NCBI GenBank assembly: GCA_002633005.1 | Contig: NMRA01000196.1 | Coordinates: 207,632-271,631 of the forward strand | Length of the DNA: 64,000 nucleotides | Reading direction: 5' to 3' | Source of the DNA: Phoronis australis | Lineage: Eukaryota > Animalia > Phoronida | The notes under the pieces: generated by a model | The model's input: the letters and a program-made list of their open reading frames with translations, nothing else | Database searches by the model: none | What the model was told of the DNA's origin: nothing | In this document: piece after piece, positions 731 through 46,912 of the stretch | Layout: each line of letters starts with the position of its first letter | Numbering within the stretch: position 1 is the first letter of the stretch | Position numbers and translations under genes: made by a program

Positions 731-1128
731 GGCCCGGGTTCTAAGCTTTTACTCGAAATGGAACTCTAAATTATGTTTGGCATTTTCTACTCTATTTTCG
801 TGCGAACTCAAGATAACTGTCTATTATTATATGCTCGAGTACATGATGGCTTACGTGGATATTTTTTAGTCCTAGTTTGCAGTTGATAAACCCATCAATA
901 GGGCTAAAAGTTGGAGATTGAACTCGAAATTTCCAGGTTTTACTCGAGTTTGTAGTACGGATAAGGGTCATCAAACTAGGACCTGAAACTCATATGACTA
1001 AACTATAAGGTATTCGAGCACAGTCTAATAACCACTTACACGTATCTTGAGTTCGCACAAAAGTAGCAGAGAAATAACCAAAGAAAATTTATAGTTCGTT
1101 TGGAAGAAAAGATTTTAGATTCCAGGCT
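731..1128. mobile_element. PIF/Harbinger-type MITE (degenerate foldback)
   Basis: About 85-bp degenerate TIRs (GGCCCGGGTTCTAAG...GTGCGAACTCAAGATA and TATCTTGAGTTCGCAC...TTAGATTCCAGGCT), flanked by CAG on both sides (3-bp TSD). Confidence 0.65.
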
Positions 1129-1231: not shown

Positions 1232-4200
1232 CTATGACAAAACCGCATATCCAGCGTAGTACATGTCCAGGGCGTCGCCAATGTCCAGCAGAAATGCAGC
1301 AACAAAACCGCCAATATACATCGAAGGGACGGCAATGAACGACAACCAAGCCAACACTGCCATACCGGATAGGAAATTACCACTGTAAAGATACAAAAAT
1401 GCCTAAAACCAGTAGGTGTACCGAGGTACTCAGTTTCTTTGGGCGTAGCCTTTCCTTTTTCTTGTGTATTGAATGTGTTTCAAATTCTTTTAAGATTACT
1501 ATGCAATATTTTTCATTTCTTAAAATGAAGAACGCTCCTAATCCCCCCAGTTATACACAGAACCCAAGACCCGGGGCCAAAAAAGAATCACTTTCCAAGA
1601 TATCCATGTATATGTACATGCATTTCGGGGCAACAAGGTAAAAGTTGAGAGTTTTCTTGAGTTTTACTCGCGCTACTAAACACAGCATGCCCGTTGATTC
1701 TGATCCGGAAGTGATGCCAAATGGCTTGAAGTACAATCTGAATTTTGTCCAAAACAACTACATTTACCTCAACGTGTTGTTGTATGTAACACAGGAGAGG
1801 GTCACGCGAGCTTTGCTAGATCATTTTTTGTAAAAGAGCCATCCACACACTTATTCATTTTATAAATTCATTATTTATTCAATTTTTGACTAAATGTTTG
1901 TAAAGAGTCCTGTTGCGTGACACGTAGGAGGTGTAAACAGGCTGAAATAGAATGAAATCGTTGATAAACTTTAATGCAGGGCACACCTTACAGCCTCAAC
2001 GATAGCGGTGTTGGTTATGGTCTTCATAGATATACCTTATTATGGACTAATGAGTTCATCAATGACAATAAACAGGAAGATAAAAGCAGGCGAGCTAAGC
2101 GAGAAAACGTATGCTCTTGGTCAGCGGCCATGGGTAAACTTTAGAAAAAAACGGTTGCGGTCTACAGAATATGACCAACGCGTGAAACCAAAATGGGTGG
2201 AAAGAGGAAGTGCGACAATGAAAAAGATCTAACCAGGAGATCTTATAGAGAATATGGTGTTAACAGTGTAGTACCTTTCGTTCTCCTTTCGTATTCTCTT
2301 CTATTATCACACTTTGTTTTACGCACTTTGACTACATAGTACACACTCTAATCAGTCGGCTGTTTTACTCTTCCTGACTGGTTTCAAGTTGCGCAGTACA
2401 CTTTTCAAATTGTATACTCTCAAGACACTAGTCGGCTGTTACCAGTTACATACTGGCGTAGGCTCCAATTGGTCATTTTTAACAAAACAAATAACGTAGA
2501 AAATATATCTGAAACTAAATAAGGCGATCCAGATCCTCCCAAGGATACTATTGTTTCGTGAAATGAAGAATATAAATCGGTAAATAAAACAACAAAAATG
2601 GATCAACTGAAATTTGAAATTTTCGGAGGTAACAACTTCCTTTATCAACAAAAACAGAAATAAAGTAAAATCAAACACAAAATGTCATTTTCAAATTTCA
2701 GTTGATCCATTTTTGTTGTTTTATTTACCGATTTATATTTAACAAAACAACCACTTGTATGTACATAATTTACGTTGAGCTCTTTTCTTGTCGCTGCAAT
2801 ATTCTAATTAATACTTCGAAGACATGAAATTTAAAACCTGTGGAATTCGTATGACTGTCATTGCAGTCGTCGTTAGGCCCCTGTCATATCAGAGTTATTC
2901 TCCCAACGTGCAAGTCTACAAATTACACCCATTCTGAGGTTGAAGCAGGTGTTTCTAAAGTTTAGTTTGGTCCTTATGTGGCATTGAATCATTGTGTCAT
3001 AACTCCTGGGAGCGTCATGAAAACTACCTACGGTGTACATGTACATGAAAGTGTGAAAGGGCATGGCATTTTTACGTACGTTATGCAGCCAGCGCTCACC
3101 CTAGCTCCGGTTAGCATGAGAACTCCTCCCGACAAGGCTGCCGCTGGGTGGACACCTTCAGTGGTTGTAAACGAACCCGACAGTAACGACGATGTCAGCG
3201 CTCCAAGTAAAATGCCAAGGATATAAAACATCTGAAAGCCGAGGAAGTGCTACAAGTATACACTGACCGGTTTGTGAATATTTCTTTTAAATAAAACAAC
3301 GATTTCAGACAATTTTAAAGCAATCAATTTCGTTTTCCGATAGCGAAGGAGCGTATCTTTGAGGATATACGTATGTAGACCCCTTGGAAAATGTCCAAAT
3401 TTGGAACGCCGTATCTCAGAAATAACTGATCGGATTCACTAAACTTCAATGCATAGTTCTCCAAAAAAGCTGCTGGGAATTGCTTCTCAAATGTACAACT
3501 TCTGTATGACGCGCTGTCAAACAAAATCCACCTTACGCCTACCTTTGAAATGCGTTCTTGGCTGCATTGCAAAGGGGCGATGACCTTAATCTTAACTACA
3601 AGAGCAACGCGGAGCGTTGAACTGCGCCCACAAATGCACCCCAAACGGTGTGCTTCTAGTTTTGTTTATTTGTTTCATAAAAATGGTCACTAGAAGGCGC
3701 AAGAACGTCCAGTCGATCTGAAAACTGGACATGCCATCTCTTCTTTAATAAAAACCTATTTAACGCAGTTTCTAAAAATCTGTCAAGGAACTTCAAAGAA
3801 ACGAAGGGAAACGGAAAAACGAAATTACTACTATGGGGCACAGCGTTCGTTAGCTCCACCTGAAAGGGGTCGTCTTCCTTGTTAGCGTCATAGAAATAAA
3901 ATTACTAAATTCAATAACGATCCTGCATTCGGTTTAGGAGACTAAGCTATGGGCCCAAGACAAAAAAACTACCACTACGAGGTACCACAGTAGTCGAATT
4001 CGCTATCGTCAACCGTCCTCTTCACACTGAGAACATATATATGTATGCCAATTTTCAGTCGTCCTTAGAATGGTTTGCTTGATAGAGGGACGGACGCCAA
4101 AAACAGACTCGAAAACAACAAAAAGGCACTAGGTGGCGCAAAGTACCTCGGTTTCATCCGAAAACAAGAGGAAGATAGCATCATCTCACCAATAGATGCC

Positions 4201-7200
4201 TAAATTCCATTTTTTCTGAAAATCCGATGAAGACCTTTGAAGATACCGAGGCAAACCTAAAAAACTACTAGTAAAACCTATTTGTCAATTTTTAAGAAAA
4301 TCCGCCAAGGATGAGCACTGTAACGTCAACATAAAACCATGAAAATTTTGAGATATCCAGTTGAGAAAACAGATCAAGTTTGAGTCTTATACTGGGATAA
4401 AAACTTTCAAAAATTAGTGACGTTGCGTACGCATCTCACGGACTTCTGCTTGGCTTGTGACGTTATCGTTATTCTAGCTAATTGGTGGCGTTTTGACCAG
4501 ACAGCTCGCCATTGACGTCAGAACACCATCCCATACGTGTCACGGTGACAAATCGAATCTTAAACCGCCTCTTTTTTAAAAGAAGGACTCTCAATGCGCT
4601 CACGGAGAGATTCCTTTACACCCCTTCTGAACCAGTCTTCCTCAAAGTCTAGGATAGTGACATCATATGTATTGAAATCATGTCCAGTGGCGCACAGGTG
4701 GCTAAAAATAGCCGAATCATAAGTGTCCCCGCAACTAGGACGACGATGTTGTAACAACTGTACGGATTTTTATGGACTATTTCGTTTCACCAACGTAACT
4801 GTCTGAGCTTTGGAGATCTTCACACTGGACTCCATAAACAACACATGATTTATTACGCTTGGGGGTCTTGTCTTTGACTTAACCTGTTGGCTGCAGAGAG
4901 AATTAAACGGTTTGTGGATAATAGTTAAGGAAAGCATGGCAAAAAAACGTTACCGTCATATTTGCTTGTAACATTAGCGAACCACTGGTTGTACATGTAC
5001 CATAGATTAAAGGTATATTAATACGTGTATATGGTTGCAATAAACATGCAATAAAGATTTGCTACATGTATAATGCGTCTTCGGTAAATTTCATAAACTA
5101 CAATTTCTTGCTATTTTGTTCCCGAAAAGACGACCACGACCTACATATGACGAGCACACGCCGGTTGATTTGCGTGTTGTAATTACACGTTCATTCGTTT
5201 TATGCCAACACTTGGTAATCACTGCACAGAAGCTTTTCTGTTGAAACTGAACCAAATAATTTTATATTTTTGCTCGTAGTTCTAAATCCCGGTACGTAAA
5301 GAGCACTGATAGACATTTTCTTGTTTTTTAGAATGAGACGGAATGATATTTTGCGTGATGACAGAAATACGCAGAAGCGCTGGGCAGGGACTGATGAAAT
5401 GCCAACAAACAAAATCAAGAGTCATTGCCAACACAAACGGGTCAACTCGAACCGAAAGCGACAACACTAAGGACCAGAAAATGAAAAACAATAAAGACAA
5501 ATACTTTAGGAGAAAGTGTTCTAAGCGTTCCCAATGTTTTTGGTAATAGGAGCCTGATCGGAAATTCCCTGGTAAAAGGCCAAAAGCTTATCAATGGTGT
5601 GTTTTTATACCTTGCCTACAGCTCAGTGATTGAGTTTATATATGGCATTTTTAAAACACTGTCTTACCTGCCACCAGTTTTTGAAGCCCCACCTCATCTG
5701 TGCTAGCCGGGGGAACATACTTTGCAATTTCGTGGTAACAAGCCATTGCGAAACTATCGTGACATAAGACCTCGTGATTTCGAGAGTGTCCATTGTTGTG
5801 AAAGTCGTGAGCAGATGTAGCGCCCCCATAGTGCATCCTGCGGCGTAAACCGGCCATACTTTCATGTGCAGTACGGTAGGGCTTGTTTTTGATAGTGTTG
5901 AATTAAATACCTGTGTAAACATTAGTGTTTGTATGGCAAGGTCATTGAACAGGTTACCATGTAACAGTAGCGGAGATTTTTTTTTAAATTTGCCGTACTT
6001 CTGTTAGAAAGAAAGCAACAAAAATCCTAGTTCAAAAACACAAACTAGCACTTCAGCATTTATAGGATCTCGTACCGATACTAAGTCATTTGTTTCTGTC
6101 AGATGAGATTCTTCTGTGTCTAACATTACAAAGAGTACAGTGTAGCCTTAAATTTCTCCAAAAAAGGAAATTTTCTTTTAGGCAGGGTTGGGTGTTGGGA
6201 CATTGCTCTGAGTATTTGCATTTAAAGAGGCATGGAACGCGATAAACTGACTAAATTGCGAATATTAAAAGTGGTTTTCTGCATAGGTCAACTGCTCGCC
6301 ACAAGGAAAAGCGGTATGGCAAGAAATAGACGTAGTCCATTTCCTTTATGGGAAATATGACCTTTGACCTCAAGCGACTTGATAAGCAATGCCAGAGAGT
6401 GTTTGCGCAAATTTATCGTACTTGGGAGGAAGATCAGAAACTCTGTGGTAATCACAGAGTTTTTTCTTCCCACGTATTTTAAAAATCGTGAATTTTGTGG
6501 CTTTTTCTGGAAATTTTCTCATTGCGAGATGGTATTTTCGTCAGGAATTGTTTAAAAGATATTTTTGACGAGCTTTCGCATGGTATGCCTCTTTAGGGTA
6601 GGTTGTCAATTATGATGTACAAACGTGATTCACTCACCACCTGAGAGTCCTGTCGGTCATATGTTTGCGGGTAGAACACCTCCATTGTGTAGACTGTTAA
6701 TGACAGACATATGGCCATCGGACAAGCGAACAGTGCATACTGTAAGTTGAACTTCTGAAAAATTCTGCAATATAAACGTGTGGAAGGTGTGGCAAATGTA
6801 TTTGTAAGGGCGACACGTCTTCCTGAAAATTTGGCTCGTTATCTCGTACCATTTTTACAATAAGTAACATGTACATGTATATTCATTTATGTCGGCGGTA
6901 GTTTTACAAAGACTACCGTATTGCAAGCTTAGCTGAACATTTGTGATAGAAAAAAGCGGTTAATAACGATATTGTACTAACGTTTGGAAAACGAGACCAC
7001 CCTCTGATTTGTCTAGACTTCCAAATTTGTCTAGCAACAGCGTGTAGACGAGCGCTGCAAAAAGAGCTCCGACGATGGCGAAACCTGAAAGGAAATTTAA
7101 TGGAAGTGGCGTGATCAGGGTCAGACTTACGTGCCACATTTGGAGTTTGTCTCAATACTCCGAACATTACGTAGATCAAATAGGTAAAAGAAATATTTAA

Positions 7201-10200
7201 AGGACATTCTTGTCATGCGTACGATTGCCTATCATGTAAATTATGTAGCAATTTACTCAACCATGCGATATGTACGTGTACATGTTTCAATCCTTCGGTA
7301 CCATGGCACAAAATAAAGTCCTTCTCCAAAAGAAATCATTCAGGGCATCTAGAGGAAAAGATATTGTCAAACTAGAGCGATATTGATCGGCTAATCCAAC
7401 TAAAGAATAGTACATGGACAATGGGCCGCCAACAGTGTGTAATTTCATTGCATGATTTCAAATCTGTGATCATGTGAACACCCCACTCTGACCACTGACC
7501 ACAGCGTCTAAATGCGTTTTACTATCTTTACTTCCAAGAAGAACGCTGTATGGGCAAAATCTCGTTCGAACAAAGAGCGTGGCATGGGCGCACCCGGGGG
7601 GGGGGAGGAGGGCTCGGGAAAATCGGGCAAAAAGGTCCGCATCAGCGAAACAAGAAGTCCTAGTAAACGAGACAGAAGTCCACCAAGTCCACAGGAATCG
7701 TGCGCGGATGCACAATTAGTTGGCCTGATCCTGGTGGCCCGTTTTTTGGTCCTCGTTGATTTTTTTCAATAAAAGGTCCGTATACCGAAAAATTCGAGCC
7801 TCCTTATACTTTGGGCTGGGTTCGCGCATGCGTGGTGCTAAAAGGTTGCACTGCATGAAATAACAAGTCACTAGGTGCTTTACCGCTAGGTGAATGTCTA
7901 TATTGGGTGAATGCTGTGGCGTAATGGCGGGGATGTTATTTGACCAGTTTTTATTCGGATTTACCGATGAAAACAAAACGGCAATACTCAGTCTTTACTC
8001 TTTCTCAATGATGCTAAATTGCAGCCAGCACAGCAGCTTGCCATGTGATAAAAATCATAGCTCATATGATGTTTATTGCCAATACGGTGCTCATTTTGCT
8101 TGTACAAAAATCGCAGTGATATGGCATTTAGTCAACCAAAACGATCGATTTTACTCACCTGTTATTTGCTTAAAATAATCGATAAGCACTTCTTCTTCTG
8201 CCCTTGATTATATGTTCAAACGAATGAATTTCCGCACTATGGCCCAAACGACGCTTAAATTAGTTTTGAGAAAATCGTGCTACGAACTGCGCCGTGGAAT
8301 AAAATTTGCGACTTACCACGTAAATTTGGGTTTATAATCTGTGAAGAATCAGTAGCAGGATAATCACAAGGAGCTTTCTCGGTGCTCTCTAAAACTTCAT
8401 ATTCTCAAAGACCCTTAGTGTATGTATAGTTAATCATCTAATTCACAAGTCACGTCTTTAATTTATACCAGCAGCGTCATCAGATAGCTGTAAAGCCTTT
8501 GGTCGACTGGGTCCAGTACCTTTTGCGGCGTCTGCCCACCGACTTGAAGCAAAGTTAATGAAAAGTTTTGATTACAACTACTCCGAGTTGATAACCACGA
8601 ACACACAAATGGAAAGTGCAGACCTAATATAGGATGCAAGGGCGCGAAAGCATGCGTCTTCGGGAAAGCAGTACAGACTCAAAGTAGAGGAAACGAGAGC
8701 TTGGGAATAGGAAACAAGTGGTTCAGTTAAGCACGCGGCTGAGAAAGTATTACTTATGTTGAGTATATAAATACGCCATTCTACTTCAAGCAACCGATTG
8801 ATGAACATGCCACCACTGATTCCACGTCATTGATTTTAAATTTGGCTTATTCTTAAATGGAATCCTGAATCTCTTCGGACGGTAGGAACCGATTACTGAC
8901 GTGGCAAAAGGAACTTTAAGTCAAATTTCTGAGATTTATTTCTTGTTTTTAATCATTCCGTCGTAAAATAGGTGATTTCATGATTTCGTCCACCTGAACC
9001 GTTCAGTTTTTGGCTTTTGCTGATTAACTCGTCTCTTGTTAAATTCCGATAGAACGTTCAAGTTGCCAAGAATGTCTCATTGGACAAATGCATTGATGAT
9101 TTTTATCCTTTTTCTCATTTTTTTAAATTAAAAACAAAAACAAGAACTATACTTACTTTAGAGTAGTTTGATATTGATCGAATGCTTACTTGAATTGGTC
9201 ACGCCCGTTGCCACTTGGATCAATGCGAGGCTGGGACACTAAATAAGTCAAACACAGAAGATTTTTAGTTGGTGTGTATGTTTTGAAATCCAGTGCTGCA
9301 TTTAAATAACTAGGCGTGAACAATTGTCCTATTAGAAGCTGAAAATATAGAAAATTCTGTTAGCCAGTATGCCAGGCATGGCAAAAAACAAGTGAAGGCA
9401 AAACATAGGTTTACAAATGGAAAATTAAACTGTAAACTTTTGTGATTGTTCACCGTTTCACAATAATTCACAGATGACGACGTGGCTCGCGGAGGTGACT
9501 AACAAATGTCAGTTAAAAATTTAAGTTGCAGTATCCCAAAGAGTGCCACGCGACCGACCAAATATCGTTTGGCGGTCACGGTCACATGTCAAATTTGTAG
9601 TTTCTCTTCTGTCTGAGCGCTATCTACTCGTGGTAGTAAACATTTTCGATGTAGTAATGATTTGCATCATAGCGAAAAGTCGCGTTCAGTGCTCTTTTGA
9701 CAACTGCTATTTTGCTTCATGCAATAGCGTCACTATAGATACGAATGACGAAGAAATCTTAACCTTACGTAAAATTTAAAGTAATGTGCAGTAGATGTAG
9801 CTATTCAATGGTAGATTAGGTGAAATATTACCGATCCAGAGATAACCATGCCAACCCCAAGAATGAACGGTCCAAGAAAACTTTGGAACGCTCCCTTTCC
9901 AGTGAAATTCGAGGCAAAGTTGTCGACAAGGGCAAAAAAGGATGACTTGGCCGCCGGGATGAGTGACGCCACGCACAGGATAACCTGAGCTAAGAAAACA
10001 AAGAAACTGAAAAGTGTGGTTTCGAAAGTTGTTGTTAGTTGCAGTTGTTACTTTTTAAAAATAGTCAATTTTTAATTAATTTGTAACATTGACAATAGTT
10101 TCAAACCCATTGGTGACTAGATCGATTATACCAAGCCAAGAACACTCTCCAACTGCCTTATGTTTAGTTTTCACGCAATAGTTGTCGGTAAATTAATGTA

Positions 10201-12905
10201 ATACGGCAAAGTAGAAGTTTGGTGTAATCGCAGTTTAGTGTACAAATAACACTGGTGCTCAGCGTTAACTCAGCTACCCTCTAAAGTGTTACACATCAAA
10301 CTCGAAGTGACTGAGTGTAAATGTTATAGTGTAGCACCCGTTCAACAATAACTCTGGCAAGGGGTTTGTTTACACCAAATTCTAGTCTACTTACTAGCGC
10401 GACGTTTCGAGCAGTCGCTTCTAGGACCATTTCCTGGACAGGTGGAACAGCGTTAGTAGAAGAACGGGCTTGGGTGTCTGTTACACTAGTGGTGGGTACT
10501 TGGGTTGTGTTTTTCTTGGTTCACGGCAGGTTTTGAACCTGTCAGTCCAAAGATAAGTTCTACGAGCAGACCTAGAGAATGCCAAAGGGTTCACTACCAT
10601 AACCAACCTTAGCTAACCAGTACATGGGCAAGCTTGAGCAAACAGCCCTCTCGGGTCAACCAGTAAGCTACATCACTAATAATGGACAGGATAGAAGACC
10701 CTACGCAACACACGACGTGCCTCCCATGTATACAGTGGTGTACCTGGAATCGCTGAATAATAGGACTCATGTGCTAAGAATTCAGAACAAGAACGTTATG
10801 CCGTAGCTTGGATATCGTGGGTCAACGGCTGACCAAAGCCTAACCAAGACAGGCATGGGGGAAAACGTCGTTTATGACCCCGTACTGAATGTGGCAAATC
10901 CTAAATGTATATAGCGGTGAAAGACAGAAGTAACTGAAAATCAGGATTGTTGATCCCAAGAAATAGTTGGGAGAAAACAACAACTAATAGGGAGTACATG
11001 TATGATGCCAGGGCATGGTCAATACAGCAAGTACAGTACTAGGATAGCATCCGAATATTTCACAGTCAAACAGGTTAGGACTAAAATAGCGAACGTAGAA
11101 GATATGCACATGAAGCTACACGACAATGTCTAAAATTAACCTCTCATGCAGCCAAGCGATAACATGGCCACCCCTCCTTAGGTAATAAAGAAGATATGGG
11201 TATAAAAATGTATCCAAGACTTTACGGATGATTCGGTTGAACTTACAGTCACAAGCCTCCAGGTTCAAACTCCGCCGTCCACTAGGAAAATATAATCCAA
11301 ATGCCCAACCGTGAATGTTCCAGATACCCGTGCTCGTTCATCTAAGAACTTTGTAACACAAGATGATACTAGGAGGAATAATCGACCGAAACGTCTTTCC
11401 AAGATAATCACGCTTATTAGTTAAAACTGATACGTCTAGGAGAATCAACAAACCGTATATTTTATTAACAATGACATGAAAAAGGTTGCCTTTATCGTTA
11501 AGGTTAGTGTAAACAGTCTAATAGATTTTAGAAATGACGTGACTAATGCGTTGGAAAAGATACTCCACAATGAGTCAATGGCTTCTCTTTGTAGCACTGT
11601 GACCAAAACAAGGTTGGCATATTTACTTCAGGTGAAGAGAACAGAAAAAAATAACTACTTTACCTGCGGCAATGGACGTGAGATGAAGTTTCATTAGAAG
11701 GAAATTGGAGAAAGCAAACTGTTCTCTTATTGCTCGAGGTTTGTAAACTGTAAGAAACACACAATAGCCTTTGCTAATTGCATAGGTCGTGAGTTGGTTT
11801 CTACGACATCTGCTAGTGCTTTACATATACTCCAGGCACACCAGTTTGCAGTCAGACAGCTACATGTATGTATGATAAGAAAAACTATGTACCAAGGCTA
11901 TCTTGAGTTACGTGGTAAAGTGTGGGACACTGCAGGAGCTCTTTCGGTGATAGCTTGGTTAATCGTGTAATGGAGAGCCCGAAGTTCACTAGGTGTCGCA
12001 AGTGAAGCAAGAGACATTCGCATAGAAATTCTTGCATTCGTGTAAATTACGTGAGCCCTTTTCACACGAACACCTGATGCTATAGTCGGTAAACCAGCCC
12101 TAAGCCCAAAATGAATTGGCTTTTTATGTCGGTAAACTGCTTTCTGCTCTCAGTTTATTCAGATGCCAAAACTACATGTACACTGTAGCAACACATAGTG
12201 AATGTCAATGCGCTACTTTACGTTTGCAGTGTACATTGCACATTTATGGAACTTCGATTTAGATTTGGTTTGGTTAAATTAAGGCAAAACCCCAGTCTTC
12301 TCAGAGCCAATCTTAAAAACCAAGTGTTAATGGCTTACAATAGGCTAAGAATGAGCTACCTGGCTAGGCATCGGTTCCCCTAATAGACCGTTCTGGACTC
12401 TGTACAAATACAAAATGTGCGAAAGAGTTAGCTACGAACTCAAACACTCCAGCCTGTGTAAACATAGACTATATACATGTATATGAAATCAGTGATCTAT
12501 CTCAGAAAACGAGCAATATATACCTTTTGACTTTTCTGCGCAAAGACCGAATAGGAGACCTATAACACAGCTCAAAAGGAATAGTATTATTGACTTCCGC
12601 CAGTCTTTTGTAATGCGGCCAAACGCATTTTTCTCAATCTCAGAAAGCGAAGTTCTTTTATCTTCTTCTTCTTTCGGCAAGACAGTTTCTCCTGGTTTTG
12701 TAAGACTGCGGCTGCTAGCTTGGCACTTTATTTGATTCACCGGGTTAAGCGTCAGCTTGGAACATGCCCCTTTAATTAGACCCTTCTCCGGAGGGCACTT
12801 ATGTTTACTCGCAATGTCCGGCAAAGACTTGAGGCCTCCGGCGAAATACGTGCTTGATTTCGTCGCTTTCGAGGGTAGAGCGGGACTAATTTTGTTTTTA
12901 ACCAT
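1232..12905 (-). CDS. YeeE/YedE (TsuA-like, Sulf_transp) sulfur/thiosulfate transporter family membrane protein; 9 coding exons, ~482 aa
   Basis: Minus-strand GT-AG exons with consistent phases: 12905-12524, 11747-11664, 9989-9832, 9238-9190, 7084-6982, 6764-6638, 5910-5668, 3231-3080, 1382-1232 (1449 nt, ends TAG). The spliced protein includes GLLFGLCAEKSKVYKPRAIREQFAFSNFLLMK, GPFILGVGMVISGSCPSLALIQVATG, WPVYAAGCTMG, NWWQMFYILG and GGVLMLTGARVSAGCITGNFLSGMAVLAWLSFIAVP. These match the YeeE/YedE motifs G-x-G-M-x-x-x-G-x-C-P and G-A-R-x-x-x-G-C-x-x-G. The start ATG is the first Met in the open exon and is less certain. Confidence 0.88.
2569..2739. repeat. Perfect 51-bp inverted repeat with 69-bp spacer
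   Basis: 2569-2619 is the exact reverse complement of 2689-2739. It lies in a segment bracketed by the 13-bp direct repeat TTTAACAAAACAA (2478-2490, 2738-2750). Confidence 0.85.
3324..3659 (+). mobile_element. Non-autonomous Helitron-like element
   Basis: A|TC start, subterminal hairpins (CAACGC-GGA-GCGTTG; GCACC-n6-GGTGT), CTAG|T end, no TSD. Confidence 0.55.
4340..4900 (-). mobile_element. Penelope-like retroelement remnant (GIY-YIG endonuclease C-terminus and 3' region)
   Basis: Disrupted translation KDKTPKRNKSCVVYGVQC...YVGETK then HRRPS...SAIFSHLCATGHDF...ILDFEEDWFRRGVKES, typical of PLE GIY-YIG. A decayed hammerhead-like stem lies downstream near 4420-4450. Confidence 0.75.
6223..6595. 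mobile_element. Kolobok-like non-autonomous DNA transposon
   Basis: Termini (T)TAAAGAGGCATGGAACGCGA and TCGCATGGTATGCCTCTTTA(G): TTAA-type target site with purine-initial TIRs. Confidence 0.55.
7583..7830. mobile_element. GC-rich MITE with 5-bp TSD (CATG...CATG termini)
   Basis: CATGGGCGCACCCGG and CTGGGTTCGCGCATG termini with exact TSD CGTGG. Internal sequence is shared with 20286-20537. Confidence 0.75.
10380..11410 (+). mobile_element. Highly decayed Penelope-like element
   Basis: Remnant NVVY...CGKS...YSGE..K*LKIRI (GIY-YIG-like) at about 10865-10960. Hammerhead-like ..GATGAT...CCGAAACGTC near 11360-11396 and an inverted GACGTTTCG copy at about 10400. Confidence 0.4.
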
Positions 12906-13554: not shown

Positions 13555-13705
13555 TCTCCCTACTCCTCTCCCCCTCCCTTCCTCCCTCCATCCCTCTCCC
13601 TCCCTCCATCCCTCTCCCTCCCTCCATCCCTCTCCCTCCCTCCATCCCTCTTCCTCCCTCCATCCCTCTCCCTCCCTCTCCCCCTCTCTCTAACCTCCCA
13701 TCTTT
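13555..13705 (+). repeat. Polypyrimidine minisatellite, 18-bp unit CCCTCCATCCCTCTCCCT
   Basis: About 5 tandem units inside a C/T-rich tract. It explains the spurious PPSIPL ORF. Confidence 0.9.
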
Positions 13706-16072: not shown

Positions 16073-16810
16073 TTATACCACAATATTAGCCTCGAATGGC
16101 AGATACAACCGTGTAATAACCCATAAAGTTATCTCACTAGTGAGATAACATTTTGGCGGGAAACCGAGGCCGGATTCGAAACCGGGACTCAAGAATTTCC
16201 AGTCGCCGTATTTACCACTACACTACTCAGCGGCTGACGTCATCAAACGTGAAAATTGAATACTTAAATGAGCATGCGAAACAATCGCATGTTCAGCAAA
16301 GGGCATTGCACCGACATTTATACGCTATGAAAAATAAGACGCATAATTTCCATAAAAACAATATTTTAATTCAGTGAAATTTTTCTCTCGTGTTCTCTCT
16401 GACTTGTAAATCACAGATATCCAATTTGAATGCGGGTATCGTGTAGTCGGGATCCTTTGACTTGAGCATTATTCACCTGTCAGTTACTAGTGGTAACCTA
16501 CTTTAGCAGACGATATTTTCCCGGTCGAAGCTTGACGTGATAAAATGTGTAGTAAGCTACATGTATAATAGCTGCTATACCTTAATTTATAGATTCACTT
16601 CATTTCTATTTTCTTTAAATTTCCAATTGGTTTTGAGTGTAAGCATTTTTTGACAAAAATAGCTCGGCTTTTCTTAAAAGTTCACGACCTCCGACCCTGG
16701 GTCTCTGACATAGAAAGTAGTTGCAAAGCCGAGGCGAGTCGAGAAAGGCAGTTCGATTCATTGCAGTGTTTCTCGTTTAGTATGTGGTATAAATAGATAA
16801 CGCCCCTCGA
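16073..16810 (-). mobile_element. Crypton-like non-autonomous repeat containing a tRNA-like segment (copy 1)
   Basis: Aligns in reverse complement over about 700 bp with 54405-55109. TTATACCAC / GTGGTATAA inverted ends. Confidence 0.7.
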
Positions 16811-25277: not shown

Positions 25278-28200
25278 ATGTCTGACCACGAAAGGGCAGC
25301 ACTGCTGGGCGATGGGAAGCGCAAACCTCAGTCCAACGGCAAGCCGGATCACAGTTACGAATCCCTCTGCAGATCTGACCCAGAAATTGTAGTTCACGGT
25401 ATCTACTTTTGAAGTCATGTGACATATTCCATGTTGTGTAACTTCAACAGATTTAATTAACACATATTGATAGAAGTGTTTTGTGTTTTTCCAAAAGCAC
25501 TGCTAGTAAAGCATACCAATATGGATGAAATGATTTTTGCTAGAATTTTCTGTAAACTAATTGTGCCAGAGTCACACCCACATGCATTACCTGTAAGTAA
25601 TTTTAATATATAACAAAATACTGCACATCAGCAAAACCTTGAGTCATTAGCTATTACACTTGATGAACCTGAGTGCTGAGCATGGAACTCATTCAGCACT
25701 GCGCACGCGTTTCATTTCCAGGACAATCAAACGGTGCAGTACGAAAGAAACGAAACATGAGTTTCCACGAGAACATCGACAAGATTACACTTACTTGGAA
25801 GGACATCGATGTGTTCGCTCCGCCCCCTAGCCGGGCCTGCTGCCGTGGCCCCGCTCCAGGCTCACAGCCGAAGCAAATATTAAACAACGGTGAGGCTGAA
25901 CTAGATTCTAAATAAATCTTTGGCTGGAAAATTTGTCATTAGTTTGCAGGCTACAGGAGATTTTTAAGGCCCTAGGGAAAATCTAAATAGTGATGGTAAT
26001 CTTAATTAAAGAAAATGCTAGGGACGAGGTACAGTATATGTAGGGCCGTTTGTCTTAAAGTAAAAAACCAATTCGGTGTTTTGAGAAGTAAATGTCTCAC
26101 GATGTCTAAATTCGCTCGTACATTCGTTGTTCATCGTAACGTGAATTCCCAGCCAGCATGTATAAAGGCCTACGACGGAATCATCAAATTTTCGTGACTA
26201 TGGTCTCAATTCTCCCAGTCGAGAGCATGAGGACATACATGTAAGGAGTTTTCATGGGTGATACCTTGATTTTTACATGCAGGAGAAATTCGTGCGCCAA
26301 GCTGTGAGAGCCTAGTTAACGACAAAGAAAGTCAGTGATAAGTTCGGACAGTTCCGCTGATGTCCGCCGAAGTATACGAGTGTGCTCGCTTGACCCACCT
26401 GCACCATTATCCACAGAATGGCCGGTACTTGGAAATGAGCCTGCCGTGGTTAACGACTGTATATCTGAGCACATAAACTTGAGCGAAAATCCCGCAAAAG
26501 ATAACCTTCCTTTTGTTTTAATCGACTTTTTAGTTTATATGTGCTTTACAAAATGTTCGGAGGAATTTTCAATGAATGCCGACCACAATGCCGCAGCCGA
26601 TGTACGAATAGGAGGACTCCGAGTCACTCAGTGCCGACACAATACCTTCATTTTTCCGCTTCACCGAAGCAGCAATTCCATCTTAATGAGAATACTTGGG
26701 TGAATTGTAAATATCGGACGTAAGACTCCATTTTAGAAAGGCGATGGGGCTATTGGTGGAATGATTAAGCCAAGTAATGAAATGTTTTTCTATAGCATCT
26801 ACCTCGACACTTGTATTTTACATGTAAATCATTCGGAAATTTCAAATTAGTCTGTTTGAATGGAAACAAGAAGTGTGTACTATCACTTTGATCCCACTAA
26901 TCTCACTTGTTCAAGCGAGAAGCGCCCTCACAACATAACTGCCTTTGCACCTGTAGTCGTGTTTTTCCAGTGACTACCTGTTCACCGTGTTGTACGTGTG
27001 AGGGCTTAGAATGACTTGTTAAAAAAATGGGGTAAAATTTACCTGTTGTTTAGTGATTTAGCATTTCCAATTGTATTTGAAATATCAGGCCTGCCCGGCG
27101 AGTTGTGTAACTGGTTTCGTAATCTTCGTTACATAAGTGTCAACTATCATAGGTCTTTGTCCGAGGTCAATATCGAGGACTACATGCAAAATATACTTGC
27201 AATGACTGTATCAGTGTTTGCTTAAACACTTATCAAAAGAGGGGTCATGTGTGTCAGTATCAGACAATGTAGCTGAAGTCGCTTCCTTGCGGATATCTTT
27301 TTAAATTTCTTGCGCGGCATCAACAAAATGGCCGCCTGCACGCCTACAGATATGCAGGTGTATGTTGTACGGTATTTCTCAACTCACAAATTACAAACAA
27401 GATAACTAACAAGCGGCCTACATTTCAGTTAACGGCGTTGTGGAGCCAGGCACACTCGTAGCAATGATGGGAGCCAGGTTAGTGTTATGTGGTACATGTA
27501 AATATTTCGAGTTTACAAAAAAGTATTTGTTCACTTATTATTGTGGCTTTTTTGATAAGAATCTGCTTCCTTTACTCAAGGTCGTGGCTTCGAATCCTAC
27601 TGGACCACACCACAGGAGCCTTGTGTCAAGTTTCTAGCTTCTCAGCTCGGTTTTAGCTATATATTTATAAGGTATGAAAATAGTTCGAGGTGATCAGAGC
27701 AATTGGCCCACCCAAGTGGCCCGCGCACGTCTGGTATAAGAACCAACTGGAATAATTTATGTATGGAAGACGTTCAAAGTTTTTTTCAAGTACGACATTT
27801 ACATGCAATCAAGCAAGTTCTGAAATAGCAAGAATATTTGTTCACTTTTCAGTGGAGCTGGGAAGTCAACTCTTCTCAACGTGCTTACAGCTCGTAACCT
27901 TGGTAATCTTGTTGTCACTGGCGACGTGCGTGTGAATGGCGTTAATGTTGGTCGTGGCATCAGCGCCATCTCGGCCTACATTCAGCAGGATGACTTGTTT
28001 GTCGGAACCCTCACCGTGAGGGAACATCTGATTTTTACGGTAGTACCGTGGTTTTTTACGCGCTAGTGATCTCTGAACTTTAAACACATTGTGCTTAACT
28101 CGATAGGAAGAAGGTAGCTGTACCGCGATAGTTCCACAACTTTGTGTGTGGATATCTGTATCAGTATGTTTTATATTCGCAGTGTACAAAGCAAAGTCCG

Positions 28201-31200
28201 TGGAACAACACAATTCATTTTTACCACGATTTAGCCACCATTGAAAAGGATTCTAAACAAAAAGAAATGAACATTTGGTAACAGTTTCATGCGACAACAC
28301 TTTGTTGAGTTTTGATGTTGCCGAATTGGTTATGAAAACTACATGTATAGCGTGTACTCTTTGCACTTGTGACATTTAAGCCTCAAACTATTTTGTTTAT
28401 CTCCTGTGGTGACATTCTGATTTACATCTGTGTACACATTTCCCAGGCCAATCTCCGGATGGACAAACATTTGTCGTATGAGCAACGAATCCACCGTGTA
28501 GACCAAGTAATTGGGGAACTTGGTCTAGAGAAATGCCAAAACACTATCATTGGCATTCAGGGCAGAATGAAAGGCATATCCGGGGGAGAGATGAAGAGAC
28601 TGGCCTTTGCATCAGAGGTGATTAGACTAACATGGTGCCATGTGTAGGCTGTTAACATGTGATTTACTCGAATTACTAAATGTTAAAGTTTAGCAATTAA
28701 TCAGCGGACGTGGGCACAGTCAATTGCTTTTGTTTGCTCACTGTGTGGCTAAGTTCGCTTGTTCTTATTCGTTCACTGCCAGCAAGCGCTTTGAATGACT
28801 AGGTTCTGTTATGAAATGATAGAATAAAACAGTGCCTAGTATCTACATATGTCTGTACATGCCTAAAATGTTTGAATTTAGATTTTGCGAAATCCACCCC
28901 TACTATTCTGTGATGAGCCTACCTCTGGTCTTGACTCGTTCATGGCTGAGAATGTAGTGAAGACTCTCAAGAAAATGGCTAACAAAGGCATGACTATCTT
29001 AGCAACCATACATCAACCATCTTCAGAGGTTTATGCACTCTTTGATCGGTAGGTTACAGAGTTCACAATTCCTGACGTTAAGATGAAAATGTTCATGTCG
29101 CGTGACGCTATACTTTCAGACAACTACAAATGTTGGAGTTTCAAGTACAGTAGCCATTACCCGAAATACAAAATAACCATTTCTGGTTCTACTGTCCATA
29201 TCCACATTGTTGTGGAGGAATAGACGAGTTGTTCACAGTTGTATACATGTATGTACATGTAAATTGTTACCGTACGAATCACGATTTAACAGCTAAATTT
29301 GACACCTCGAGTAGGGGTACAATACACTGTTATTCGATCGTCTCGACGGTCAACCTTTTTTGAAAACACCTCCCCTCATACAATACGATGCATTTTACAT
29401 GTATCTGTACGAAAAAGAAGATCCCTAATTTATTCGATTCATCAGCCTCTGGTGCGTTGCATCTGAACCATTCTAGGGCAGGCGGCGTCAAATATGTATG
29501 TCTACGTCTGGGCCCTTTGATGCAACATAGTTTTAATAACAGTCGACGGGCTATCCAAATTAAAGAAATAACAGTAATCATCAAGCTCCTTGACATGCAC
29601 TACTCTGACGAAATTCGTGTACTGAACATTTTGAACTGTTTCAGAATATTACTCTTGGCAGAAGGCAGAGTAGCTTACATGGGATCTTCCAAGGGGGCAT
29701 TTACTTTCTTTGAAAGGTAAGACCATTGTGCAATGTGACTCGCGGCAGATATTATCATCAATGCTTATCCAGACTGTTTTGCCTGTCTCGGCGTGGGTGG
29801 CAAACGATGGCCTCCTCATAACCTCTTATACGTTTGCAGTTGACATCAGCCTTCAATTTCGTTAATGGAATGAAGGTTTTTCGGAAAAAGTGTGGTGGAT
29901 TACGAGCGAATTTGTTGAAGTTGGAGGGATTTTTAGACTCCAACTGGCTCTCAAGGTGTCCAGTTGCACTCGGACTGTACACACAGTGACCTGATTTCAT
30001 TAAGTCAATCCGGGTTGTGTTATACATTATACATATGGGACCCTAATGAGATTCCAAATTTGATAATTTCGGAGTATCATATCACAGAAACGGTGGCCCA
30101 GACTCAAATGAAATGTTTAGTTAGTATGCTTTATGAACCTTTCTCCCAAATCTCATGCAATACATTTTCTCTACGCACGAGCTACGGCTGACTTTGAGAC
30201 GCAACAGACCATTCAATTCCAGCAGTGTGTTTTATTGTAAGGACGGTTTACTTTCAGCCCCACAATCAGTTTTGCCGCCTATCGTATCCTTGGCGTTTCA
30301 TTGTGCTGTGACCAAATGCAGTTTAAGAAAATACCGTCGTGTGTGAAGAAACTTGTTTATGGCATCCGCACACGGATCATAACGGTTTTAACCTACAGCT
30401 CACCGTCGACACTGTTGCATAAAACGATTGTCACGTACTATTGAAAAATGAATTGCGACAAATGATCGTCCTTTCCAGAGGGAATTAGAAGATTTTCATC
30501 AGCTCACGTCACTGACACCGGAAAATCTAATGAGCCTGATCGCTCTTGAATGATACAACCTTTTTTGTTCCTGTTGTTGAACACTGTAGTCCAGCCAATA
30601 TTGTTTTTGTGTGAGAACTTCCTCGAAAATGTTCAACCTCTCTCTTTAAGCACCTCACCTCACTGTTAACGACACATTAAATTAACAACAAACTAGCAAC
30701 CTACAGATATTTAACTGATATTCTATTTCAGCCTGAAAGTTCCTTGTCCGCCCAACTTTAACCCTGCTGATCATTACATTCGGGTGTTGGCCATTAGGCC
30801 GGGCCAGGAAGACGACTGTAAAGCTAACGTAAAGGTAATTAATGAAGCGCAAAAGTACTGACCCATTAGCGGCGCAGCACTGAAAAAAGTGAGGGCTAAA
30901 GCCCCCATAGCCCCCGTGTAGTGCACCGCCTATAGACCATGTGCGGCGTAGCACTGAAAAAGTGGGAGGGGGGCTATAACCCCCAGCCCCCTATGGTGCG
31001 CCGCCCATGTGACCGTATTCAGTTGAAACTTTCACACATTGTGCGTTACGATGTCTTCTCTGATACGCTGTTGGGGATTGTTTTTAAAATGTTCCACTTT
31101 TGAATGAGGGACTGTAAAAGTAAAATAGGATTTCTCATAAGGAAAACTCACAAATCGTATCAACCGAAACCGAAATGATAACTTAGAAAGCTGTAGCAAA

Positions 31201-34200
31201 GCTGTTAAGATTTCATCTTGAAGGCTTACGTGAAATGAAATTTGGTTATTTTATTGATTTCTTTGTTTTGTTAGGCTTGTGCATTCCCTTTTTATAAAGT
31301 TCAAGAAAATACATGGTCACACGTTCCACTTGATGTTAGGATAATCTATTAATCAAAAAGAAATTTGACAGGCTTTCTGCTTTTAAAACATAATTATGAG
31401 CAATTACCGAAATAAAATCTGTAGTTTTGTAGGTACACTCCCTGTACATGGCGTACTTGTCGACAAGGTCCTACATTTACATAAACATGTAGATGCGCTT
31501 CATTTTTGTAAGCTGGTTGTTCACTTTGGAACACACTGCAAGGTATCAATGGTTCAGTAACCTGCAGCATGTAGCCTGTATCAGACGAAACATCGTATAC
31601 ATGTGCATACACGCTAATATTTCAGAACTTTTAATAATGTACAGTACATGTATTGAATGAACTTGCTTTGTGTTGGCTAACTTTGTAATCCTTATTAAAA
31701 AAACTATTCGAAGTATTTATGTACGGCTAAAATTTATGTAATCACTTGAACTAAACTAAACCCTGTTTTGATGATTTCAACCAAGCCTCATTCTGTTACC
31801 TGCTAATGCATCACTGGTGTCTATCGTGAAAGACGAAAGCAGGAACCAACTAAAACCTCAAACCTGCTATGCTATCTTACAACTTGGACATCATGGTCCT
31901 TGGTGTGTGGTCTTTTCCCACAGTTGCTGCGCACTTCGCTTGAACATTAGGTCACACTTGCCTGTTTAGCAGAAGTTTTCAAATTTTCCTCCAAACTTCT
32001 GAGTGTTGACGAAGTTTACATAGCATTAGTTTATTCAGTGAAAGAATTGGATGGGAAAGTCGTTCTTAGTATCTGTTGCTGGGCCAACACCGGTTTTGAC
32101 ATCCTCAATTTAGCTAAAGCCACTGTCAGTTGAACATGTTTGAGTCGTGCAAGTGTTGTTTCCAGTTCATCACTGAGTTTGTTACTAACACGTGTATTTT
32201 GAAATTCAAAATGTAGTAGATCACTACATGTAAGCCTGGTCTGTACACGCCATATTACCTGTTGACAACATCATGTAACGAAATGGAGCCAACAGGTGGC
32301 GTGCAGATCGGAATTAAAATGCTTGTGATCTCAGTGTGCTTCCACGGCGGTTCAAAGATTCATGTCTTTATGTAAACTCGTAGTATAGACTCTGAACGTA
32401 CTACTTGCAGAGCATATGCGACGCCTACGACACATCAGAGTTTGCACGAGGCATTGAGAAAGGTTTGGATTCCTACTCCGTGGCCGATAACAACGTAAAT
32501 GTGAGTCTTTCACCAAATGAATGCGTTCACAGTTGCATCCTTTTAGAGGTGATGAGGCCGTATATCGGTCGCGCTATTTTAACAGCTCAGACACCTCTTT
32601 AGGGACATCCGGTAGATGGCATTTACTAAATTTCTCCACCACCCCTTCTTACTTTGTACGGAAAGTCGACGAAGAAGTTTATAGTTTAGTGCATTGAATG
32701 CTAAGCCTTTCCAATCATCTCATTCGGTTGATTTTTGAATCATTGCTGTGCACATAAACAACACCCCCTTTTGTCCGTGCTTGTTTCACAGTTGAAGAAA
32801 CTTTAAAAATTGATGTTATGTATTCTTCCTTCTAGTTCGACGAGATTTCCCGCATTGATAGAAACCCGTATCAGGCCAACTGGTGCCAACAATTCAGAGC
32901 TGTACTTTGGCGCTCGTGGTTGTCCTCGTGGAGGGACCCCCTTGTCATTAAAGTCCGATTTGCTCAGACTGTGGTAAGTTGCACATCGGTCTGGCTGCAT
33001 TTATTTCTAACCTATCAGTGCCCCCGACGTCATTTATGGGTCTGCTTGCTTTTAGTGTCATAGAAATATCACACACCACTACTTGTATCGAATGTTTCAA
33101 TAAGTCAAGCAGTTGTCGGAGGATCTTCGTAATCTCTCTTGTCTTTATTTTGTTTTAGTTCATAGCTGTCCTACTAGGTCTAATATACCTACAGCAGACC
33201 TACAACCAAGCCGGAGTACAGAACATCAACGGTGTGATATTTTTAGTTCTCACCAACATGACCTTCGTCAACCTCTTCGCCGTCGTAAACGTAAGTAAAT
33301 TAAGATGAATTGCAAGAAATCGCATAGGTTTTGAAGTAATGAAATATTACAGCATTATTCTAAGTTGTGACAACCATATACATGTAATATCAAAGCTTTT
33401 CCATCACTGTTGTTAAAGTTATCAAAAATGAGACCAGGTCTGACCATTTCATTAGAAACATATTTCATAATGGTAAGTCACTTCAATCAAAAGTTTGCTT
33501 TTGTGACGGAACACTGATATAAAGCCACTTTATGAAACCTGCAATAAACCAAAAAAATGGTTCAATTGTCCAACAACCAGCATTCTTTTAGTCAGAACAG
33601 ACTCAAAAATCAAAGGAAGTGTAATTCTAAGTCGCAACTCTTTAACAAAACTCAAAATGCCCAACCAAATCAGCAGCCACCAATTTCTAACGAATTTAGG
33701 GTACTTAAATCCAGCGATGGATCAAAAACTATTGAGTACCACCTTTCCGTTTGTGCTCCTTTACATACATGTATTTGCTTTGCACAACGACATCTGACAA
33801 GTTTTCAACTCACTGAGCAAAGATTCCGTGCGAAAGCCTACACCCTTTGGTTTTCGGCTTCTAAGATTGAATCCCTAATGAACGATCTATGATTCCATTT
33901 TTGAACGAGGGGATATCTTGTATTACAAGACCAAGCATGTTATGACCACGCTGGGTATTCATAACTTTTCACTTAACGCTGCATTGTTTAGCTGCATGGC
34001 TAAGTACGAAACTCAAATTGGGCCTTTCGTTATCATAACATCGAACCCTAGTATTCCTTAGCGCAATATCATTCCTTTCCATTTACCAACAACACCATCG
34101 AAACCATCAACGAACCAGACTGTCGACGTTGGCCAATCCTAAAATGCGAATTTGAACATGGTGCATGTACACATTGTTCATTTGACAGCAATTCAAGATC

Positions 34201-46272: not shown

Positions 46273-46912
46273 TTTTATTTTTTGAATTCTGGCCACCAAC
46301 CTTAAATATTGTTGCCAGTGTTACGGTAAGTTGAACTTCTATGCACGTTTGGACACTAAGACGGAAATATATCAGAGTCTTTATATTTGAAGAAAGGAAT
46401 TGTTACCGCAAACAATTTTATGTAATAAATTGCACGTTATTTTCCTTTATATATTCAAAATCACCTTTGTTAGTATTTTTCGTTCGAGATTCTCATTTGA
46501 AATGAGACGGCGCTGACAGTATGTACCTGTTGTCTGTGCAAATGTCAAATATTTTATGCGACGTGTGGTAAACCTAGAGATCTTATGAAACATCATCGGT
46601 GAAATATGTCGATATGACAACGGATTTGCCTTTATGATACGGGAAGGGAGATATCCGCCAGTCCGTTTACTTTTCACTTTACCGACATGCACGGTGTGTT
46701 TTATCGTTGTTTGACAATCACTCACGTTTCCTTGTTGAAAGCTCCGGTAGTCATTGCCAGTACACTTATAAAGGGGTTACCATTGGGGGAGCCCAAACGC
46801 ATGACCATAACAATATCGAGACCATACAGAATTGATGATGAGTTCTTAAATGATTTGTGGGTACTTGACCACCAAACTTTATCAAATATTCGACTCGATA
46901 ACTGAACATCAG

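What the first reader, a model, noticed from the sequence alone, without database searches (positions are those of the whole stretch)
1232..12905. Intron-containing animal YeeE/YedE (TsuA) sulfur-transporter gene
Seen: nine GT-AG exons with matching phases splice to an open ~482-aa polytopic membrane protein carrying both YeeE Cys motifs (GMVISGSCP; GARVSAGCITG). Established: YeeE/TsuA is a characterised prokaryotic thiosulfate uptake protein that uses membrane-embedded cysteines and works with the TusA-like partner YeeD. I know of no functional study of an animal member. Inference: eight spliceosomal introns full of host transposons argue against bacterial contamination, so this animal probably has a resident, uncharacterised transporter for inorganic sulfur (thiosulfate, persulfide, possibly selenium species).
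Basis: partly seen in the sequence, partly recalled or inferred. Interest (0 to 1): 0.8.

Follow-up and report, generated by a model that had tools for sequence, protein, structure and literature searches.

The report
Divergent, likely flipped animal sulfur channel
This is a real, spliced and expressed animal gene for a YeeE-family membrane protein that keeps two of the three bacterial channel cysteines; its family is predicted to sit upside down in the membrane and would then likely move sulfur out of the cytosol rather than in, and this copy has rewritten gate motifs, so it is likely retuned or decaying.

Summary
Observation confirmed: nine GT-AG exons on the minus strand give a 482-aa open frame; all 8 junctions are read in 2 of 4 same-species runs; exon 8 passes the PF04143 cut-off; an ortholog's model matches bacterial YeeE (Z 34). 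It is not unique: 100 relatives, many named from molluscs, annelids, echinoderms, sponges and algae, are already auto-annotated, and this scan met the family before in Naegleria and an alga. 'TsuA' is the wrong subfamily: the first cysteine is missing family-wide, TsuA models score far under cut-off, and the nearest bacterial relatives are two-gene half-transporters. Two things are added. (1) Loop charges are reversed against bacterial YeeE in every animal tested (39 of 39; 0 of 5 bacterial controls), predicting an inverted channel, likely an exit route for sulfane sulfur or thiosulfate. (2) This copy changes 13 of 48 near-invariant positions (median relative 0), including CTSGHG to CITGNF, and 12 of 33 reads at the last junction splice out Cys431; yet the frame is intact. 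Retuned paralog or decay cannot be separated. No transport was tested.

The parts
12524..12905 (-). exon 1: start codon, 100-residue hydrophilic tail without signal-like stretch, helix H1 (aa 1-127)
11664..11747 (-). exon 2: loop LA without cysteine (KVYKP; family RVFEP), H2, start of H3 (aa 128-155)
9832..9989 (-). exon 3: H3, basic H3-H4 loop, H4 (aa 156-208); alternative acceptor at 9984 shifts the frame
9190..9238 (-). exon 4 (49 nt): loop LB with Cys209 (codon 9238-9236; equivalent of C91), H5
6982..7084 (-). exon 5: H6 (aa 225-259)
6638..6764 (-). exon 6: linker helix H7 (aa 259-301)
5668..5910 (-). exon 7: H8, altered loop LC (DTLEITRSY; family DTLGGSSSY), H9 (aa 302-382)
3080..3231 (-). 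exon 8: H10, H11, loop LD with Cys431 (codon 3087-3085; equivalent of C293); competing donor after 3100 removes the cysteine
1232..1382 (-). exon 9: rest of LD (TGNFLSG; family SGHGLSG), H12, H13, stop codon
10395..10520 (-). cryptic exon in intron 2; donor after 10395 joined to exon 3 in 7 reads; its 5' end was not determined
2569..2739 (.). MITE-like element in intron 8: 51-nt perfect inverted arms, many multi-copy reads

Best explanation
This is a spliced, expressed nuclear gene for a two-cysteine YeeE-family membrane protein that is predicted to sit upside down relative to bacterial TsuA and likely lets sulfane sulfur or thiosulfate out of the cytosol along a Cys431-Cys209 relay, with gate loops likely retuned in this copy. 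Shown: gene structure, splicing, family, loss of the first cysteine, retention of the other two, motif changes, reversed loop charge. Inferred: fold (from an ortholog's model), orientation (positive-inside rule plus a long tail without signal), substrate (from characterised bacterial relatives), direction (from orientation), and that the protein is still made and used (from the intact frame). In bacteria the substrate enters at the C293 face and leaves past C91 and C22 to YeeD; in the inverted protein the C293 face is cytosolic and the C22/YeeD face looks outward, where neither would be needed. Animals turn sulfide into glutathione persulfide and thiosulfate (PMC12170894), and do not build cysteine from thiosulfate (recalled), so release into a lumen or out of the cell fits better than uptake.
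For: Junction reads. PF04143 hit. Spliced protein 38-42% identical to the four best relatives, E about 1e-92 to 1e-95 within the 100-protein set. Model of ortholog P0015 (pLDDT 88.4) matches S. thermophila YeeE: Foldseek E 9.9e-09, VIA Z 34.1, rmsd 2.5 A, 307 residues, next unrelated Z 5.7. C91 and C293 are essential and C22 dispensable in S. thermophila YeeE (PMC7449682); two-cysteine YedE1E2 imports zero-valent sulfur (PMC10812762). Lys+Arg are more numerous on the N-terminal face in 39 of 39 animal rows; with two loop definitions 17 of 17 animal relatives, 17 and 18 of 18 other eukaryote-clade rows, and 0 of 5 bacterial full-length controls (E. coli TsuA 3 against 19), whose known topology the method recovers. 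Tails of 25-166 residues in 17 of 18 animal rows, only 1 with an 11-residue hydropathy above 1.5. Still selected: simulated neutral drift to 27% changed residues left no stop in 14 of 2000 runs; match to consensus falls from 0.73-0.74 in conserved to 0.12 in variable columns; Asn and Phe after the LD cysteine also occur in working transporters (E. coli GCSIGNG; S. thermophila GCNIGHF).
Against: No transport, localisation or protein detection. In this copy the charge bias is thin under the first loop definition (8 against 7; 21 against 8 under the second, which includes tail residues), and the rows share ancestry, so 39 of 39 is not 39 tests. Glycosylation sequons do not separate the two faces. 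A channel may pass substrate both ways, so orientation need not set direction. The entry arginine of E. coli TsuA aligns roughly with a conserved aspartate in animals (register uncertain), which speaks against thiosulfate. The characterised short YedE1/E2 type scores little better against the animal profile than TsuA halves (45 and 17 bits against 35 and 20); the truly close bacterial pairs are uncharacterised as far as found. 13 of 48 near-invariant positions are changed, and splicing is leaky, as decay would also give.
Confidence: 0.36

Rival explanations
1. The copy is a decaying or weakly constrained duplicate: it was released from selection fairly recently, is still transcribed, and no longer transports much.
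For: 13 of 48 near-invariant columns changed; next worst of 89 relatives 6, median 0, 57 of 89 with none. The fast-evolving bryozoan relative keeps 0.98 of them. Longest end branch in both full-length trees (1.76; 2.27). Non-productive splicing: 12 of 33 reads at the last junction use a donor that ends the protein at 427 aa without Cys431; at the exon 3 acceptor region 12 of 56 reads shift the frame and 7 of 56 come from a cryptic exon. No close relative found in two searches with single exons.
Against: Frame and 16 splice dinucleotides intact; 14 of 2000 neutral simulations stay stop-free, and indels were not even modelled. Both cysteines, both CP/GC contexts and 16 of 19 near-invariant glycines kept. 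Expression differs about 70- to 95-fold between runs. GC3 0.50 against intron GC 0.39.
Confidence: 0.28
2. One reading: a TsuA-like importer that takes thiosulfate into the cell in the bacterial orientation.
For: Same fold and the two essential cysteines; S. thermophila YeeE works without C22 and moves thiosulfate alone in liposomes (PMC11073785); residues after Cys431 resemble TsuA proteins.
Against: C22 is essential in E. coli TsuA and absent family-wide; TsuA models far under cut-off; reversed loop charge; no YeeD-like frame in the window (best E 2.9) or fused in the 100 relatives; YeeD is essential in vivo in E. coli.
Confidence: 0.14
3. The copy has taken on a different job: another substrate (selenium species, a small thiol) or a redox-sensing role without bulk transport, with the cysteine-skipping splice form as a switch.
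For: Changes fall in or beside all four pore loops while the scaffold is kept; bacterial relatives include selenium transporters and the signalling SoxT1B (PMC11582611); the short form ends in the last exon and should escape nonsense-mediated decay (inference).
Against: Clustering of changes in LD is not more than relaxed selection could give (hand estimate, not a tool result); selenium-type models score no better than TsuA models on the orthologs; the competing donor is simply explained by a weak normal donor (AAC|GTACGT) next to AGG|GTGAGC.
Confidence: 0.2
4. Bacterial contamination or a recent horizontal transfer.
For: The family is best known from bacteria.
Against: Eight spliced introns; nests among animal rows in every tree; the nearest bacterial relatives are two separate genes in the opposite order; an unnamed genomic fragment P0004 appears to begin and end at the same exon 8 boundaries (read from its protein ends only).
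Confidence: 0.01

Closest known systems
Auto-annotated invertebrate 'thiosulfate transporter TsuA-like' / 'UPF0394 YeeE-like' proteins (e.g. Ruditapes P0015, Owenia P0021, Lingula P0024)
   Same: Single chain, hydrophilic tail, nine-helix layout, two cysteines, no LA cysteine, reversed loop charge; 37-42% identity to these three.
   Different: They keep CTSGHG (100 of 100 hits, partly by how they were found) and the glycine-serine LC loop; this copy has CITGNF and LEITRSY and the longest branch. None is characterised in the papers found.
TsuA/YeeE of Spirochaeta thermophila (PDB 6LEO, 8K1R) and E. coli
   Same: Fold (Z 34.1 for the ortholog model); C91 and C293 equivalents.
   Different: No C22; no YeeD seen; about 20% identity; predicted opposite orientation; far under NCBIfam cut-offs.
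YedE1/YedE2 (PmpA/PmpB) two-gene zero-valent sulfur importer (PMC10812762, PMC11582611)
   Same: One cysteine per half; the CTSGHG and CPG motifs of the animal family are seen in 143-145-aa pairs from Sphingobium and Cupriavidus metallidurans.
   Different: Two short genes rather than one chain; low profile scores (45 and 17 bits); import direction shown there, not here.
Longer two-gene half-transporters (about 171 + 206 aa), mostly Alphaproteobacteria (L002-L081)
   Same: Best bacterial matches: about 150 bits per half; share the RVFEP loop A without cysteine.
   Different: Split in 79 of 80 genome loci (the 80th is cut by its contig end), C-half gene first; no function found in print; trees do not resolve them as the sister of the eukaryotic clade.

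Membership tests
YeeE/YedE family (Pfam PF04143 Sulf_transp) | Profile hit above the curated cut-off | tested here: met
   Exon 8 frame alone 35.5 bits, cut-off 27. The spliced protein was not scanned against Pfam.
YeeE/YedE family (Pfam PF04143 Sulf_transp) | YeeE hourglass fold with nine membrane helices and four buried loops | tested here: inconclusive
   Met for ortholog P0015 (42% identical over 367 columns); the window's own spliced protein was not folded.
YeeE/YedE family (Pfam PF04143 Sulf_transp) | Cysteines in loops LB and LD (C91, C293) | tested here: met
   Cys209 and Cys431 align with them.
TsuA thiosulfate transporter (three-cysteine subfamily) | Third cysteine in loop LA (C22/C25) | tested here: not met
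   Tyr129 aligns with E. coli C25; 0 of 85 relatives have a cysteine there.
TsuA thiosulfate transporter (three-cysteine subfamily) | NCBIfam NF041049 / NF052577 cut-offs | tested here: not met
   Orthologs P0015, P0024: 39-48 bits against 645 and 400; E. coli control 711 bits. The window itself was tested by two exons only.
TsuA thiosulfate transporter (three-cysteine subfamily) | YeeD/TsuB partner | tested here: inconclusive
   None in the window or fused to relatives by a single-sequence search; no genome is held.
TsuA thiosulfate transporter (three-cysteine subfamily) | N-terminus outside, C-terminus in the cytoplasm | tested here: inconclusive
   Charge bias and tail predict the opposite for the family; a prediction, thin for this copy.
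TsuA thiosulfate transporter (three-cysteine subfamily) | Thiosulfate uptake | not testable with these tools
   Needs complementation or liposome assay.
YedE1/YedE2 (PmpAB) | Two adjacent genes of about 140 aa forming a heterodimer | tested here: not met
   One 482-aa chain.
YedE1/YedE2 (PmpAB) | One essential cysteine per half; zero-valent sulfur transport | tested here: inconclusive
   Cysteine pattern matches; activity not testable.
Eukaryotic single-chain two-cysteine YeeE clade | Groups with eukaryotic members in trees | tested here: met
   C-half 25 of 25 rows one clade (96*), N-half 24 of 25 (98*), quick trees; the careful tree gives no starred set of up to half the rows that holds it.
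Eukaryotic single-chain two-cysteine YeeE clade | CTSGHG in loop LD and glycine-serine loop LC | tested here: not met
   CITGNF and LEITRSY: a variant of the clade, not a canonical member.

The most novel reading that the evidence does not exclude
Eukaryotes flipped a bacterial sulfur importer: after fusing two half-transporters they insert it with the entry cysteine in the cytosol, making it an export channel for the products of sulfide detoxification in marine invertebrates, and this animal carries a neofunctionalised copy with rewritten gates and a splice switch that removes the entry cysteine.
Probability: 0.2. Interest if true: 0.8.

Novelty: new variant of a known kind. Interest (0 to 1): 0.48.

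Why it matters
No animal member of this family has a described function in the papers found, although it is widespread in invertebrates that meet sulfide. If the predicted inversion holds, the 'TsuA-like uptake' label on these genes is wrong in direction, and there is a concrete, testable candidate for how such animals release sulfane sulfur or thiosulfate. This copy is a natural multiple mutant of the pore loops and would show which residues set specificity. If it is merely decaying, it is an ordinary divergent paralog of an already annotated family.

Tried and rejected
No whole genome is held, so a canonical paralog, YeeD-like partners and SQR/ETHE1 genes could not be sought in this animal; the window holds no second copy. 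Exon 7 word search: 9 candidates, none scored; ESM Atlas on exon 7: best 0.89, uninformative; exon 8 against PDB sequences: only chance antibody hits; exon 8 against 1.84 billion representatives: 6 weak hits, 3 of them real relatives. No RNA holder was listed by the index; runs came by species label. pN/pS could not be measured: 1 coding difference among 12 listed places. A search with an exon of the neighbouring ABC transporter gave one unnamed hit, so the lineage-wide rate and the phylum could not be checked that way. Alphaproteobacterial or mitochondrial origin: suggested but not resolved by the half trees, and the loci were picked by patterns from the eukaryotic alignment. Gene neighbours of the bacterial pairs: sulfur-related domains in 6 of 30 loci (sulfide dehydrogenase-like flavoproteins in L035, L045, L056, L058, only L058 named as such; rhodanese-lactamase in L079, L080), from 144 frames of 90 aa or more: weak. 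Glycosylation sequons did not mark a luminal face. Paper searches were swamped by a general term and add nothing. Selenocysteine: both cysteine codons are TGT/TGC.

Full report
Observation. I rebuilt the gene from the sequence. Nine exons on the minus strand between 12905 and 1232 give 1449 nt and 482 residues with no inner stop; all eight introns (217-2436 nt) are GT-AG. Of four runs with the same species label, X1 and X2 read all eight junctions (218 and 148 reads; 17.1 and 13.1 per million records), X3 has 2 reads at one junction (0.18 per million) and X4, contigs, none. The reads are strand-specific for the minus strand. The two junctions around the 49-nt exon 4 carry the tool's flag 'between: not known'. 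Only one coding difference from the window is listed (12545, all reads in both runs). The gene is real and its expression differs strongly between samples.

Family. Exon 8 passes the PF04143 cut-off. A relative found with exon 8 (P0002) led to 100 proteins, all with PF04143, named where named from annelids, molluscs, a brachiopod, a bryozoan, echinoderms, hemichordates, sponges, a choanoflagellate and cryptophytes, many as 'TsuA-like' or 'YeeE-like'. No named hit is a vertebrate, arthropod or nematode; the search is word-limited, so this is weak. The spliced protein matches the best of them at 36-42% identity, where canonical members compared in the same call match each other at about 36-59% outside one close pair. 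A model of ortholog P0015 from 73 aligned relatives matches S. thermophila YeeE. Trees put the window among animal rows: inside a 22-row, mostly lophotrochozoan set at 98* in the quick tree of 45 rows (44 of the 100 hits); in the careful tree of 26 rows (19 rows dropped for run time) it pairs with an annelid at 89/93, unstarred. The host is probably a lophotrochozoan; this is not proven.

Not a TsuA. Tanaka et al. (PMC7449682; I read parts 1-3 of 5 of the text; supplements not seen, and their alignment figure may bear on eukaryotic members) describe three cysteines C22, C91, C293, N-terminus outside, entry at C293; C22 is essential in E. coli but not in S. thermophila. Ikei et al. (PMC11073785, passages) show YeeD is needed in vivo and note in one clause that YeeE-like proteins occur in eukaryotes. 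The window keeps C91 and C293 equivalents and has Tyr at C22, and none of 85 relatives has a cysteine there. TsuA models give animal orthologs 39-48 bits against cut-offs of 400 and 645. The closest bacterial loci are pairs of half genes: in 79 of 80 genome loci both halves are separate frames, C-half first, about 150 bits each against 54 bits for whole E. coli TsuA. These loci were picked by patterns from the eukaryotic alignment, which favours them. Both half trees (56 and 55 rows; 24 bacterial pairs of 160 loci) recover a eukaryotic clade but not its bacterial sister. The characterised two-cysteine system is YedE1E2/PmpAB, which imports zero-valent sulfur and needs both cysteines (PMC10812762 and PMC11582611, passages); short pairs of that type share the CTSGHG and CPG motifs but score low on the animal profile.

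Orientation. Using helix limits from the ortholog model, I counted Lys and Arg on each face. E. coli TsuA has 3 on the N-terminal face and 19 on the other, as its known topology demands; four other bacterial full-length proteins agree. All 39 animal rows are the other way round, and so are 17 of 17 animal relatives under both loop definitions and 17 and 18 of 18 other eukaryote-clade rows. The animal proteins have hydrophilic tails without a signal-like stretch, and the model has no extra helix before H1. By the positive-inside rule (established knowledge, recalled) the tail and loops LC/LD with the C293-type cysteine face the cytosol. For this copy the count is 8 against 7, or 21 against 8 with wider loops. 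The rows are kin, sequons gave no independent support, and the compartment is unknown. If the relay keeps its polarity, the protein releases sulfur from the cytosol. Animal mitochondria convert sulfide to glutathione persulfide and then thiosulfate and sulfate (PMC12170894, passages); that sulfide-tolerant invertebrates accumulate and excrete thiosulfate is recalled, not from a call.

This copy. It differs from the family consensus at 13 of 48 columns that are at least 95% conserved among 89 relatives of 320 aa or more (11 shorter hits dropped); the next worst has 6, 57 have none. CTSGHG, present in 100 of 100 hits (partly by ascertainment), reads CITGNF; the LC loop reads LEITRSY. At a looser 85% threshold it has 18 of 74, and three distant or broken rows come close (16, 15, 14). 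Against decay: the open frame (14 of 2000 neutral runs), the gradient of conservation, both cysteines, and precedent for Asn and Phe at these places in working TsuA proteins (E. coli N306A stays active). For decay: 12 of 33 reads at the last junction use a donor 20 nt upstream and end the protein at 427 residues without Cys431; 12 of 56 reads into exon 3 shift the frame and 7 of 56 come from a cryptic exon. The Ser-to-Thr change at codon 433, which spans the intron, leaves a weak donor, a likely cause (inference). Without a genome or sister species the two readings stay open.

Print and earlier notes. Ten searches listed no study of an animal member; two of them were swamped by general terms and the library lacks most subscription journals. 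A fission yeast review mentions YeeE only as bacterial (PMC8310684, passages). Other listed papers were seen as search listings only. Two earlier notes of this scan describe the same eukaryotic family in Naegleria and an alga; none was found on inverted topology or in this genome.

Verdict. A confirmed, expressed member of a known and widely auto-annotated family, mislabelled as TsuA; a divergent variant in its pore loops; and a family-level prediction of inverted orientation that is directly testable. Interest 0.48.

Noticed in passing
window 26300-37000, + strand: Exons of a likely ABCG/white-type ABC transporter (signature-bearing exon 28447-28617; 79% to an unnamed PF00005 protein; the exon alone gave no Pfam hit). 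Not modelled.
   Followed up: partly
window 50758-52514, + strand: Exons of a trypsin-like serine protease (PF00089).
   Followed up: partly
window 41931-46400: A tandem duplication with spacing about 2200 nt, 97-98% identical, around the single N at 44072; likely an assembly artefact or a very recent duplication.
   Followed up: no
window 748-1110: Inverted repeat (73-nt arms, 74%) just downstream of the stop codon with many multi-copy reads on both strands; the 3' end of the transcript was not fixed; AATAAA/ATTAAA at 1186, 518 and 475.
   Followed up: partly
window 16148-16746 and 54461-55049: A dispersed repeat in two inverted copies, 79-91% alike.
   Followed up: no
window 13563-13694: CT-rich tandem repeat upstream of the gene.
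   Followed up: no
window 12545: All reads of X1 and X2 (32 of 32, 30 of 30) differ from the window here; it falls in codon 121 of exon 1.
   Followed up: partly
P0024/P0067, P0052/P0062: Lingula and Ptychodera each have two canonical copies on different branches, so the family duplicated early in animals.
   Followed up: no
P0087: A 735-aa relative whose match to the window starts at residue 346: a fusion or a doubled protein.
   Followed up: no
L132:2627-3604, L146:7980-8966: Single-chain 326-329-aa members on metagenome contigs that group near bacterial split pairs in the N-half tree yet show the eukaryote-type charge bias: possibly a second fusion and flip.
   Followed up: partly
L154: Two separate pairs of half-transporter genes within 5 kb.
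   Followed up: no
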